This document shows, one piece after another, positions 26,101 through 32,100 of a stretch of 64,000 bases of DNA. The DNA is from Eledone cirrhosa (Eukaryota): assembly GCA_964016885.1 (NCBI GenBank), contig OZ024763.1:13516001-13580000 (forward strand), written 5' to 3'. The position numbers were made by a program, and so were the translations under genes. The notes beneath the pieces were generated by a model that worked only from the letters and a program-made list of their open reading frames with translations, did not search any database and was not told where the DNA came from. How positions within the stretch are numbered: the first letter of the stretch is position 1; the number at the start of each line of letters is the position of its first letter.

Positions 26101-29100
26101 CATTGTCAACATAATCAACATAACCATCACCATTGTCAACATAATCAACATAACCATCATCATTGTCAACATAACCATCATAATTGTCAACATAACCAAC
26201 ATAACCATCATCATTGTCAACATAACCAACATAACCATCACCATTGTCAACATAATCAACATAACCATCATCATTGTCAACATAATTAACATAACCATCA
26301 TCATTGTCAACATAATCAACATAACCATCATCATTGTCAACATAATTAACATAACCATCATCATTGTCAACATAATCAACATAACCATCATCATTGTCAA
26401 CATAATCAACATAACCATCATCATTGTCAACATAATCAACATAACCATCGTCATTGTCAACATAATCAACATAACCATCATCATTGTCAACATAATCAAC
26501 ATAACCATCATCATTGTCAACATAATCAACATAACCATCATCATTGTCAACATAATCAACATAACCATCATCATTGTCAACATAATCAACATAATCAACA
26601 TAACCATCATCATTGTCAACATAATCAACATAACCATCATCATTGTCAACATAATCAACATAACCGTCATCATTGTCAACATAATCAACATAACCATCAT
26701 CATTGTCAACATAATCAACATAACCATCATCATTGTCAACATAATCAACATAACCATCATCATTGTCAACATAATCAACATAACCATCATCATTGTCAAC
26801 ATAATCAACATAACCATCACCATTGTCAACATAATCAACATAACCGTCATCATTGTCAACATAATCAACATAACCATCATCATTGTCAACATAATCAACA
26901 TAACCATCATCATTGTCAACATAATCAACATAACCATCATCATTGTCAACATAATCAACATAACCATCATCATTGTCAACATAATCAACAACAACAACAT
27001 CATAATTTTCTTTTTGCAAGAACTGTCTTCTGTATCTTTGATTCAATAAGTTGTGTTGTTGTTGATGTTGTTGTTGTTCATGTTGCTGTTGTAGTGTTGT
27101 TGATGTTGTTGTAGTGTTGTTGTAGTGTTGATGTTGTTGTTGTTGTAGTGCTGTTGATGTTGTTGTTGTAGTGTTGTTGATGTTGTTGTTGTAGTGTTGT
27201 TGATGTAGTGTTGTTGATGTTGTTGTTGTAGTGTTGTTGATGTTGTTGTTGTAGTGTTGATGTTGTTGTAGTGTTGTAGTGTTGATGTTGTTGTTGTAGT
27301 GTTGATGTTGTTGTAGTGTTGATGTTGTTGTAGTGTTGATGTTGTTGTTGTGTTGTTGTAGTGTTGTTGTTGTTGGTGTAGTGTTGATATTGTAGTTGTA
27401 GTTGATGTTGTAGTGTTGTTGTTGTAGTGTGTAGTGTGTAATGCGCAGTGTGTAATGAGTAGTGTGTAATGTGTAATTTGCAGTGTCTAATTTGCAGTGT
27501 GTAATGTGTAGTGCGTAGTGTGTAATGTGTAGTGTGTAATGTGTAATTTGCAGTGTGTAATGTGTAATGTGTAGTGTGTAATGTGTAATGTGTAATGTGT
27601 AGTGTGTAGTGTGTAATGTGTAATGTGTAATGTGTAGTGTGTATCAAAGACTTACCAGCACTGATACCAACAATAAACCTTCCAACAATAATCATTTCAA
27701 AGGAATGGGCCATCTTGGAGAAGCACATGAGTGTGAGGGCCACCAGGGTGGGTAGGTTGTTCCATAGTAGGGTGGTCTTTCTGGAATATAGAGACAGACA
27801 GATAGACATATATAGACAGATAGACACACACACGAGTGTAAGGGCCAACAGGGTGGGTAGGTTATTCCATAGTAGGGTGGTCTTTCTGGAATATAGACAC
27901 AGACAGATAGACACACACACGAGTGTGAGGGCCACCAGGGTGGGTAGGTTGTTCCATAGTAGGGTGGTCTTTCTGGAATATAGACACAGACAGATAGACA
28001 CACACACGAGTGTGAGGGCCAACAGGGTGGGTAGGTTATTCCATAGTAGGGTGGTCTTTCTGGAATATAGACACAGACAGATAGACACACACACGAGTGT
28101 GAGGGCCACCAGGGTGGGTAGGTTGTTCCATAGTAGGGTGGTCTTTCTGGAATATAGAGACAGACAGATAGACACACACACGAGTGTGAGGGCCAACAGG
28201 GTGGGTAGGTTATTCCATAGTAGGGTGGTCTTTCTGGAATATAGACACAGACAGATAGACACACACACGAGTGTGAGGGCCACCAGGGTGGGTAGGTTGT
28301 TCCATAGTAGGGTGGTCTTTCTGGAATATAGACACAGACAGATAGACACACACACGAGTGTGAGGGCCAACAGGGTGGGTAGGTTATTCCATAGTAGGGT
28401 GGTTTTTCTGGAATATAGACACAGACAGATAGACACACACACAAGTGTAAGGGCCAACAGGGTGGGTAGGTTATTCCATAGTAGGGTGGTCTTTCTGGAA
28501 TATAGACACAGACAGATAGACACACACACGAGTGTGAGGGCCACCAGGGTGGGTAGGTTGTTCCATAGTAGGGTGGTCTTTCTGGAATATAGACACAGAC
28601 AGATAGACATATATAGACAGATAGACACACACATGAGTGTGAGGGCCAACAGGGTGGGTAGGTTGTTCCATAGTAGGGTGGCCTTTCTGGAATATAGAGA
28701 CAGACAGATAGACATATATAGACAGATAGACACACACATGAGTGTGAGGGCCAACAGGGTGGGTAGGTTGTTCCATAGTAGGGTGGTCTTTCTGGAATAT
28801 AGACACAGGCAGATAGACATTTATAGACAGATAGACACATACATGAGTGTGAGGGCCAACGGGGTGGATAGGTTATTCCATAGTAGGGTGGTCTTTCTGG
28901 AATATAGACACAGACAGATAGACATATATAGACAGATAGACACACACATGAGTGTGAGGGCCAACGGGGTGGGTAGGTTATTCCATAGTAGGGTGGTCTT
29001 TCTGGAATACAGACACAGACAGATAGACATATATAGACAGATAGACACACACATGAGTATGAGGGCCACCAGGGTGGGTAGGTTGTTCCATAGTAGGGTG

Positions 29101-32100
29101 GTCTTTCTGGAATATAGACACAGACAGATAGACATATATAGACAGATAGACACACACACGAGTGTGAGGGCCAACAGGGTGGGTAGGTTGTTTCATAGTA
29201 GGGTGGTCTTTCTGGAATATAGAGACAGATAGATAGACACACACACGAGTGTGAGGGCCAACAGGGTGGGTAGGTTATTCCATAGTAGGGTGGTCTTTCT
29301 GGAATATAGACACAGACAGATAGACACACACACGAGTGTGAGGGCCACCAGGGTGGGTAGGTTGTTCCATAGTAGGGTGGTCTTTCTGGAATATAGAGAC
29401 AGACAGATAGACACACACACGAGTGTGAGGGCCAACAGGGTGGGTAGGTTATTCCATAGTAGGGTGGTCTTTCTGGAATATAGACACAGACAGATAGACA
29501 CACACACGAGTGTGAGGGCCACCAGGGTGGGTAGGTTGTTCCATAGTAGGGTGGTCTTTCTGGAATATAGACACAGACAGATAGACACACACACGAGTGT
29601 GAGGGCCAACAGGGTGGGTAGGTTATTCCATAGTAGGGTGGTCTTTCTGGAATATAGACACAGACAGATAGACACACACACAAGTGTAAGGGCCAACAGG
29701 GTGGGTAGGTTATTCCATAGTAGGGTGGTCTTTCTGGAATATAGACACAGACAGATAGACACACACACGAGTGTGAGGGCCACCAGGGTGGGTAGGTTGT
29801 TCCATAGTAGGGTGGTCTTTCTGGAATATAGACACAGACAGATAGACATATATAGACAGATAGACACACACATGAGTGTGAGGGCCAACGGGGTGGGTAG
29901 GTTATTCCATAGTAGGGTGGTCTTTCTGGAATACAGACACAGACAGATAGACACACACATGAGTATGAGGGCCACCAGGGTGGGTAGGTTGTTCCATAGT
30001 AGGGTGGTCTTTCTGGAATATAGACACAGACAGATAGACATATATAGACAGATAGACACACACACGAGTGTGAGGGCCAACAGGGTGGGTAGGTTGTTTC
30101 ATAGTAGGGTGGTCTTTCTGGAATATAGAGACAGATAGATAGACACACACACGAGTGTGAGGGCCACCAGGGTGGGTAGGTTGTTCCATAGTAGGGTGGT
30201 CTTTCTGGAATATAGAGACAGACAGATAGACACACACACGAGTGTGAGGGCCAACAGGGTGGGTAGGTTGTTCCATAGTAGGGTGGTCTTTCTGGAATAT
30301 AGAGACAGACAGATAGACACACACACGAGTGTGAGGGCCAACAGGGTGGGTAGGTTATTCCATAGTAGGGTGGTCTTTCTGGAATATAGACACAGACAGA
30401 TAGACATATATAGACAGATAGACACACACACGAGTGTGAGGGCCAACAGGGTGGGTAGGTTGTTCCATAGTAGGGTGGTCTTTCTGGAATATAGACACAG
30501 ACAGATAGACATATATAGACAGATAGACACACACACGAGTGTGAGGGCCAACAGGGTGGGTAGGTTATTCCATAGTAGGGTGGTCTTTCTGGAATATAGA
30601 CACAGACAGATAGACATATATAGACAGATAGACACACACATGAGTGTGAGGGCCACCAGGGTGGGTAGGTTGTTCCATAGTAGGGTGGTCTTTCTGGAAT
30701 ATAGAGACAGACAGATAGACATATATAGACAGATAGACACACACACGAGTGTGAGGGCTACCAGGGTGGGTAGGTTGTTCCATAGTAGGGTGGTCTTTCT
30801 GGACCCTCTTCTCCAGGGACATTGTGGACTCCCTTCCCCAGGAGCATTATGGACTCTCTTTTCCATGAGAATTATGAACTCCCTTCCCCAGGGTCATTAT
30901 GGACTCCCTTCCCTAGGGACATTATGGATTCCCTTTTCGAGGGGTCCATAATGGACCCCGGTTAAGAAATACTGTTCTAAAACATTCCCCCTTCACAACA
31001 ACAACAACATTATGACAACAACAACAAATGTAGAAAAATACGTACCTGCCAAAATTCTTGATGAAGTATGAGGCAACGAAACCCCCTAACATACCACCAA
31101 TGCAGTATATTGAGACAGTGAAACCCCAGAGAAAGGGTTTCAAGTTACCTGAGAGGTATTGGCTGCTGTCACGGTGGTGTAGGGTTTCATTGAAGAAGTC
31201 TAACAATACCTGGTGTGGAAACAAGTGAGAGAGAGAAAGATTTAGGTTGGTAGGGAGGGAGACTGGTGTATATATATATATATATATATATATATATATA
31301 TAGGATAGGTACATAGATATATCAAGACATGGTCACCTGACCTGGCATTGCCCACAACAGGACAACTATAACCCATGCTATCGTGGAAGAATGGACGGAA
31401 AATGGTGATGATATATATACATATATATCATAAAACATGTCCTTAGAATTATTAGATAAATATTATTTAATAATTCTAAGGACATGTTTTATGATATATT
31501 GCTCTGATTATTTAATTTATTAATTCTTCATAGAGCCAAAAAGTGACCGGTTGCAACATATATATCTATAACTTTATGTATATGTAAACTTTTATATATA
31601 TAAATGAAAGGCAGGCTGTACGATGCCTGCATACGAACAGCAATGTTGCATGGCAGTGAGACCTGGGCATTGTGTGCAGAGGATATACGCAGACTAGAGA
31701 GGAACGAAGCTTGCATGCTCCGCTGGATGTGTAACAGTAATATACGTGAACGACAAAGCATAAACGAACTAAGGAAAAAATTAGAAATAAGAGGGATCAG
31801 ATGTTGTTTACTCGAGAGGAGGCTACGTTGGTATGGTCACGTGATGTGCATGAAAGACGACAGCTGTATAAAAAAGTGCAGGGCAATAAAGATAGACGGT
31901 AGCCACGGAATAGGCAGACCCAGAAAAACCTGGGACGAGCTGATAAACTCCGACCTCACACACTTACACCTCACCAAGACAATGTCACTGGACCGAGACC
32001 TTTGGCGGTACTCAGTAATAGAGAAGACCCGCCTTACCTAAATACAAAGTAAAACCTACTACAGTCAGTAGGCATCTCTAACAAAATACACCCCCCCCCC

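What the first reader, a model, noticed from the sequence alone, without database searches (positions are those of the whole stretch)
27656..30802. Exon-4 acceptor and TM3 start amplified about 30-35 times into an array of in-frame decoy acceptors
Each 87- or 105-bp unit (both multiples of 3) has the same tatattccag acceptor plus the first ~55 coding bases ([12 protein letters not shown](V/L)ALTL). The exon frame stays open across 11 extra acceptors (27886 to 28792) before a stop at 28821. Alternative acceptor use would add 29- or 35-aa hydrophobic, TM-length repeats in frame. How the spliceosome selects the last of about 30 near-identical acceptors is unexplained; exon definition from the single strong donor is the likely route (inference). 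A higher-order 906-bp duplication (variant at 29191 and 30097) shows recent turnover.
Basis: partly seen in the sequence, partly recalled or inferred. Interest (0 to 1): 0.75.

Follow-up and report, generated by a model that had tools for sequence, protein, structure and literature searches.

The report
Octopod GLUT splice-acceptor "mirage" minisatellite
In an octopus-type glucose-transporter gene, the end of an intron plus the first 57 bases of the next exon is repeated 32 extra times, yet the one spliced, likely messenger-RNA contig seen uses only the last copy, so this is most likely a tolerated example of a repeat type already named "mirage" in lancelets.

Summary
The array is real: 33 copies of the exon-4 head of an intact 543-aa GLUT (SLC2A) gene, 19 units of 87 bp and 13 of 105 bp; 31 of 32 extra copies keep the acceptor and 11 are in frame and stop-free. 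Read-derived contigs carry the repeat words at 0.7-1.2 times their assembly multiplicity. One spliced 1833-nt contig joins exon 3 to the last acceptor only. The open frame needs no selection: the tail cannot form stops, a second frame is also open, and 5 of 13 head variants are synonymous against 36% expected. The structure matches amphioxus 'mirages' (PMC3087553, PMC3902484). Choice of the last acceptor is most likely exon definition from the single strong donor, as in duplicated beta-globin acceptors (PMC5389562). New here: exons 6 and 8 of the same gene carry the same kind of array (3 of 11 acceptors, versus 0 of 80 kinase exons). A weak hint (5 of 7 spacings in frame, P=0.045, post hoc) keeps a ladder of isoforms open. 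This scan noted mirages before, twice in this genome and in other invertebrates. New member of a known kind.

The parts
27781..30803 (-). Mirage array: 32 units of (57-nt exon-4 head + 30- or 48-nt intron tail ending in the acceptor); 19 x 87 bp, 13 x 105 bp
   Evidence: repeat words at multi-copy depth in read-derived contigs
27656..27780 (-). Real exon 4 (125 nt, phase 2 to phase 1), donor CTG|GTAAGT; encodes the helices numbered TM3-TM4 in GLUT1 (numbering recalled)
   Evidence: Pfam Sugar_tr; spliced contig with 0 mismatches
27886..28792 (-). The 11 decoy acceptors (copies 22-32) that are in frame and stop-free; they would give exons of 230 to 1136 nt
28821..28823 (-). TAA in the tail of copy 21; closes the frame for copies 19-21
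29193..29195 (-). TGG>TGA stop in head of copy 18
30099..30101 (-). Same TGG>TGA stop in head of copy 8 (906-bp higher-order duplication)
30742..30798 (-). 5'-most head (copy 1), without poly-pyrimidine tail (8 of 20 pyrimidines against 14-15 of 20 in the other 32); meets the 25-bp minisatellite at a shared TCCA
30800..30935 (.). Unrelated 25-bp minisatellite (5.4 copies) abutting the array
31046..31209 (-). Exon 3 (164 nt), whose donor is joined to 27780 in the contig
22521..22691 (-). Exon 5 (171 nt), joined to exon 4 in the contig
20274..22408 (-). Second mirage, at the exon-6 acceptor (exon 20294-20193): about 28 units of 66-81 bp holding 21 exon bases; 8 decoys keep the AG, 6 of the 8 in frame and stop-free
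16185..16657 (-). Third, more diverged mirage at the exon-8 acceptor (exon 16188-16090): 6 decoy acceptors spaced 74-77 bp, 6 of 6 meet a stop
1913..53883 (-). Host gene: 12 coding exons, all introns GT-AG, 543 aa, 84% identical to Octopus sinensis SLC2A1-like P0001

Best explanation
This is a 'mirage'-type minisatellite: a tandem array of the intron-3/exon-4 boundary of a glucose-transporter gene, which most likely has no function and is likely spliced past because only the last acceptor can pair with the exon's donor. Shown: the array, its unit structure, the intact gene, and one spliced contig that joins exon 3 to the last acceptor. Inferred, birth: a 105-bp tandem duplication between a TGTG at exon bases 54-57 and the (TG)n that opens the intron tail; loss of 18 nt between two 13-nt direct repeats gave the 87-mer; slippage or unequal exchange amplified both and made the 906- and 1239-bp higher-order copies; a deletion at a TCCA microhomology removed the tail of the first copy. 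Inferred, splicing: each decoy carries only 57 exon bases and no good donor, so cross-exon definition from CTG|GTAAGT favours the acceptor 125 nt away over those 230 to 3143 nt away; slips to copies 1-21 would meet stops and be cleared by nonsense-mediated decay; slips to copies 22-32 would add 29- or 35-residue hydrophobic segments and likely misfold the transporter.
For: Unit anatomy. A 1833-nt contig of run X4 (depth 20) lies on 27654-27783 with 0 mismatches and 0 gaps, and its loose ends are the end of exon 3 and the start of exon 5 (matched by eye). Its 1142 nt downstream of exon 4 fit exons 5-12 (1091 nt) plus 51 nt, less than one unit of the exon-6 or exon-8 arrays (assumes the contig reaches the stop). 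No coding constraint on heads: 5 synonymous, 7 missense, 1 nonsense of 13 variants, expected synonymous share 0.36, P=0.52. The tail lacks AA, AG and GA, so 5000 of 5000 shuffles of each tail were stop-free, and a second frame is open too. 11 of 11 full-length cephalopod-type GLUT sequences (P0001-P0004, P0008-P0015 less the two short fragments; 12 listed with P0012) have one copy of the motif. Precedent: amphioxus mirages do not disturb splicing (PMC3087553, PMC3902484, passages); identical pseudo-donors in the human F7 VNTR stay silent (PMC1557585, abstract and Discussion); beta-globin acceptor duplications with 14, 55 or 205 exon bases spliced only to the distal site in vitro (PMC5389562, passages).
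Against: RNA evidence is one contig from one run whose kind is not on record; contigs drop rare variants, so minor or tissue-specific ladders are untested. The selection mechanism was not tested here and rests on mammalian experiments; the beta-globin constructs spliced very inefficiently, and the same paper notes that proximal exon length has been reported to change the choice. In-frame spacing recurs at exon 6: 5 of 7 independent spacings over the three arrays are in frame (P=0.045, post hoc). No orthologous intron was available, so the birth scenario is not checked. In human paralogs most boundary repeats that change introns do have alternative transcripts (66%; PMC2812944, passages).
Confidence: 0.85

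Rival explanations
1. Functional acceptor ladder: some of the 11 in-frame acceptors (and the in-frame ones at exon 6) are used, giving transporters with extra hydrophobic helices or a dose control by unproductive splicing, with array length acting as an allele-specific dial.
For: 11 open in-frame acceptors; units are helix-like (best 19-residue Kyte-Doolittle mean 2.3-2.5 against 1.2 for the real exon start); 6 of 8 AG-intact decoys at exon 6 are in frame and open, while the 67- and 79-bp units there have lost the AG; 5 of 7 spacings in frame, P=0.045.
Against: The one spliced contig uses the last acceptor. No coding constraint, two stop variants, compositional openness. The exon-8 array is out of frame with stops in 6 of 6. 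A search with the 378-aa ladder frame found 2 proteins among 7999 scored candidates, both ordinary GLUTs. An odd number of added helices would be expected to invert membrane topology (general knowledge).
Confidence: 0.06
2. Assembly artefact or inflated copy number.
For: X1-X3 are one sample and may be the source of the assembly; no record spans the array; run X2 shows no contig on part of the head.
Against: 20 distinct units with nested higher-order structure. Per-contig depth over the unique flank: X1 11.8 (assembly multiplicity 13.6), X3 12.1 (13.7), 5.2 (4.3), 16.2 (19.4), 7.7 (11.0) (matching of variants to records is my inference from mismatch counts).
Confidence: 0.03
3. Silent array, but chosen by another rule: local exonic enhancers in bases 58-125 of exon 4, or leaky use of decoys hidden by RNA or protein quality control, not donor distance.
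For: Only the last acceptor is followed by the rest of the exon; adjacent exon length is reported to affect duplicated-acceptor choice (PMC5389562, passage citing Reed and Maniatis 1986). Local acceptor strength does not single out the real one: 15 of 20 pyrimidines, shared by 8 decoys, and its only yUnAy branch-point match lies in the head of copy 32.
Against: Copies 22-32 give no stop, so decay cannot hide them; enhancers and donor distance are not exclusive.
Confidence: 0.06

Closest known systems
Amphioxus 'mirage' minisatellites (Adh3, globins BflGb6/BflGb9, troponin C, PGBD5; PMC3087553 and PMC3902484, passages read; the naming paper Canestro et al. 2002 was not held)
   Same: [quoted passage not shown]
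   Different: Octopod mollusc host; 32 units against 3-7 for the globin and PGBD5 cases read; two unit lengths, both multiples of three, with an 11-acceptor open frame; length polymorphism not tested here.
Human F7 IVS7 37-bp VNTR (PMC1557585; abstract and Discussion read)
   Same: Boundary-spanning VNTR with identical splice sites of which only the one nearest the exon body is used, also where others would keep the frame.
   Different: Donor side, 5-9 copies; the authors favour oriented scanning over pure exon definition.
Engineered beta-globin intron-1 acceptor duplications with 14, 55 or 205 exon bases (PMC5389562, passages; constructs from Reed and Maniatis 1986, seen only as a reference)
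   Same: Duplicated acceptor with a truncated exon head (55 nt against 57 here); distal site used.
   Different: Two sites, in vitro, inefficient splicing, no downstream donor tested in the passages read.
Variable internal tandem repeats at exon-intron boundaries of human segmental-duplication genes (PMC2812944, passages)
   Same: Repeats at boundaries that can alter gene structure.
   Different: There 66% of intron-modifying cases have an alternative transcript; here none was seen.

Membership tests
Mirage minisatellite | Head-to-tail tandem array of minisatellite-sized units | tested here: met
   32 units of 87/105 bp
Mirage minisatellite | Unit spans an exon-intron boundary of the host gene | tested here: met
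   57 exon bases + 30/48 intron bases
Mirage minisatellite | Many but not all units keep the splice signal | tested here: met
   31 of 32 extra copies keep tail and AG; at exon 6, 8 of about 27 do
Mirage minisatellite | Regular splicing is not disturbed | tested here: met
   One spliced contig, exon 3-4-5 with the last acceptor; minor forms not excluded
Mirage minisatellite | Length instability between alleles or cells | not testable with these tools
   No spanning reads or second individual; higher-order duplications show past turnover
Mirage minisatellite | Concerted evolution with array ends left out of homogenisation | tested here: inconclusive
   Real exon head is identical to copy 2 at the far end and differs at 4 of 57 bases from its neighbour; both end units are 105-mers; no tree was built
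Coding VNTR / alternative-acceptor isoform system | Repeat-containing transcripts exist | tested here: inconclusive
   The one contig lacks the repeat; contigs cannot show absence
Coding VNTR / alternative-acceptor isoform system | Purifying selection on the repeated reading frame | tested here: not met
   5 of 13 variants synonymous against 0.36 expected, P=0.52; stops in 3 copies; low power
SLC2A/GLUT sugar porter (host gene) | Sugar_tr domain and close match to solved GLUT1/3/4 | tested here: met

The most novel reading that the evidence does not exclude
The decoy acceptors that keep their AG at exons 4 and 6 are held in frame because they are used: a variable-number repeat would then set, allele by allele, a ladder of glucose-transporter isoforms with added membrane-length helices, a mirage caught turning from intron junk into coding sequence.
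Probability: 0.05. Interest if true: 0.7.

Novelty: new member of a known kind. Interest (0 to 1): 0.22.

Why it matters
As it stands it is a clean, large natural version of the classic duplicated-acceptor experiment: 31 near-identical acceptors with diagnostic base changes, 11 of them invisible to nonsense-mediated decay, so cDNA reads could measure how strictly a mollusc spliceosome picks the last one. It extends mirages to an octopod (none found for cephalopods in searches of the held library) and warns that such arrays can mislead gene annotation. If ladder transcripts exist it would be a rare case of a mirage becoming coding.

Tried and rejected
No RNA holder listed: none of the 7 runs is on record as RNA; X4 is taken as likely RNA only because its contig skips two introns exactly. 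X4 shows no cover on the head of copy 32 and the head-tail junction (27835-27900); a hole in contigs proves nothing and is not used as evidence. Laying X4 and X3 on the exon-8 acceptor (16080-16290) gave 0 records for X4 and 2 for X3: inconclusive, so acceptor use at exons 6 and 8 rests only on the length budget. A protein search with exon 3 found 0 of 2 candidates. The PF00083 search of the genome scored only 9 of 145 candidates. The 'period 20 or more, complex' repeat measure was faulty (it scored the exon-4 array as 0) and gave no excess for this window over small chromosomes (0.059 against 0.057); only total repeat cover is used. The first exon set had three boundaries off by one or two bases and was corrected. 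Dispersed repeat or transposon origin rejected: all 33 genomic matches of the exon are in this array (the search skips very common words). Structure prediction was not run: no isoform is shown to exist. Papers with supplements (PMC3087553 Additional files 4-6 on unit alignments) were not opened; they could refine the copy-number comparison.
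Full report
Setting. The window lies on a 30.7-Mb contig of a 3.0-Gb genome. It holds one intact sugar-porter gene on the minus strand: 12 coding exons from 53883 to 1913, all introns GT-AG, 543 residues, 84% identical over 523 aligned residues to Octopus sinensis SLC2A1-like P0001; exon 5 matches solved GLUT4, GLUT3 and GLUT1 best. The animal is therefore an octopod; I did not identify it further. 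Tandem repeats cover 47% of the window, against 9% and 17% around kinase exons on large (43 loci) and small (37 loci) contigs.

Observation. Between exon 3 (31209-31046) and exon 4 (27780-27656) lie 32 extra copies of the first 57 bases of exon 4, each followed by a 30- or 48-base copy of the intron's 3' end: 19 units of 87 bp, 13 of 105 bp, 20 distinct sequences. 31 extra copies keep the pyrimidine-rich tail and AG; the 5'-most has no tail and meets a 25-bp minisatellite at a shared TCCA. Copies 22-32 are in frame and stop-free to the donor; a TAA at 28823-28821 and a TGG>TGA change in copies 8 and 18 close the frame for the other 21. Higher-order duplications lie at 906 and 1239 bp. All 33 genomic matches of the exon are here.

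Is it real? Contigs of runs X1 and X3 (one sample, possibly the source of the assembly) carry the repeated words at 11.8, 12.1, 5.2, 16.2 and 7.7 times the depth of the unique flank, where the assembly predicts 13.6, 13.7, 4.3, 19.4 and 11.0. The tool warns that contig depth is a poor copy count, X2 shows no contig on part of the head, 127 records were not shown, and no record spans the array; still, a high copy number in the reads is clear.

Which acceptor is used? Run X4 (kind not on record) has one 1833-nt contig, depth 20, that lies on exon 4 without mismatch; its loose ends are the end of exon 3 and the start of exon 5. It therefore skips both introns and uses the last acceptor. Its 1142 bases downstream of exon 4 fit exons 5-12 plus 51 bases, leaving no room for a further repeat unit if the contig reaches the stop (inference). 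A direct check at exon 8 was blank. Rare isoforms are not excluded.

Is the open frame meaningful? Two unit lengths divisible by three have a 1-in-9 chance; the 18-base difference is one event between two 13-base direct repeats. The tail has no AA, AG or GA before the final CAG, so it cannot form a stop (5000 of 5000 shuffles open for each tail), and a second, non-coding frame is open as well, the third having 5 stops. Of 13 head variants 5 are synonymous, 7 missense and 1 nonsense; 36% synonymous is expected (P=0.52; low power). Every full-length cephalopod-type relative retrieved has the motif once, and a search with the 378-residue ladder frame returned 2 ordinary GLUTs among 7999 scored candidates.

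The same gene has two more such arrays. At exon 6, about 28 units of 66-81 bp hold 21 exon bases; 8 decoys keep the AG and 6 of the 8 are in frame and open. At exon 8, six older copies spaced 74-77 bp all meet stops. So 3 of 11 acceptors and 0 of 11 donors carry them. For a base rate I took 80 of 138 kinase matches in the genome (left out: the 30 best, mostly long, and 28 others that were long, inside long open frames, repeated members of one cluster or at a contig end). A self-alignment detector that recovers all three arrays here and none of the other 8 exons found 0 of 80 on the acceptor side and 2 of 80 on the donor side, with one borderline donor case dropped at the stricter cut-off. Fisher P is 0.011 when the given array is left out (2 of 10 against 0 of 80). 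Match ends are not exact exon ends, so short overlaps can be missed. This gene is a hot spot, in step with its repeat load; the sample shows no genome-wide acceptor bias. Across the three arrays 5 of 7 independent spacings are in frame (105, 87, 78, 537, 909 yes; 77, 74 no; the 224-bp triplet at exon 6 left out because one of three must be in frame): P=0.045, post hoc. This is the only hint for use of the decoys.

How it most likely works. Birth (inferred): tandem duplication at a TGTG microhomology between exon bases 54-57 and the start of the intron tail, then minisatellite turnover; both end units are 105-mers and the real exon head equals copy 2, not its neighbour (4 of 57 differences). 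Splicing (inferred): the acceptors are locally alike (14-15 of 20 pyrimidines in 32 of 33), the units hold only poor GT sites, and the only strong donor is 125 bases from the last acceptor and 230 to 3143 from the others. Cross-exon definition, perhaps helped by enhancers in the unduplicated part of the exon, would pick the last. Slips into copies 1-21 would be open to nonsense-mediated decay; slips into 22-32 would add strongly hydrophobic 29- or 35-residue segments and likely break the fold. Copy 32 is the most plausible leak.

What is known. [quoted passage not shown] The naming paper was not held. Identical pseudo-donors of the human F7 VNTR stay silent (PMC1557585, abstract and Discussion). 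Beta-globin acceptor duplications with 14, 55 or 205 exon bases spliced only, and inefficiently, to the distal site (PMC5389562, passages). Against complacency, 66% of intron-modifying boundary repeats in human paralogs have an alternative transcript (PMC2812944, passages). Searches listed no cephalopod mirage in the held library, which lacks most subscription journals. Earlier notes of this scan report mirages twice in this genome and in worms, urchins and abalone; these are unchecked leads, not support.

Verdict. Observation confirmed; interpretation partly supported. New member of a known kind, interest 0.22. The ladder reading stays open at about 5%.

Noticed in passing
window 16188-16644 (minus): The six decoy acceptors at exon 8 read CTACAG|GTAAC and the real one CTACAG|GTAAAG, i.e. 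acceptor followed at once by a donor-like motif, the form of recursive splice sites (motif recalled); no RNA evidence (blank).
   Followed up: partly
window 20351-22371 (minus): In the exon-6 array the AG survives only in 78-bp units; the 66/67-, 70-, 79- and 81-bp units have lost it. A 224-bp higher-order unit (78+79+67) is present.
   Followed up: partly
window 36950-37087 (minus): A 138-nt in-frame exon candidate matching the insert of Octopus isoform X1 (P0001, 559 aa, against 523 aa for X2); the 566 upstream bases of the X4 contig fit either with or without it.
   Followed up: partly
window 27824-27846 (head of copy 32): The only yUnAy branch-point match within 70 nt of the real exon-4 acceptor lies in duplicated exon sequence, 59 nt upstream; the array may now supply the branch point.
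   Followed up: no
L120 (G000:C1) and L093 (G000:C22): Donor-side boundary duplications in two kinase exons: several degenerate copies in L120, one 120-bp copy 362 nt downstream in L093.
   Followed up: partly
window 38349-39608: 72-bp minisatellite (17.5 copies) with a donor-like GAG|GTAAAG on the minus strand in intron 1; no link to an exon found.
   Followed up: partly
window about 47300-49200 (minus): Fragments that read like a broken LINE reverse transcriptase in intron 1 (identification by eye, recalled motifs).
   Followed up: no
window about 19100-19300: A long inverted repeat (arms starting near 19330 and 19080 on the minus strand) in intron 6, possibly a small non-autonomous transposon (by eye).
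   Followed up: no
L009 (G000:C2:409723541-409724833): An intronless sugar-porter reading frame of 478 aa elsewhere in the genome.
   Followed up: no
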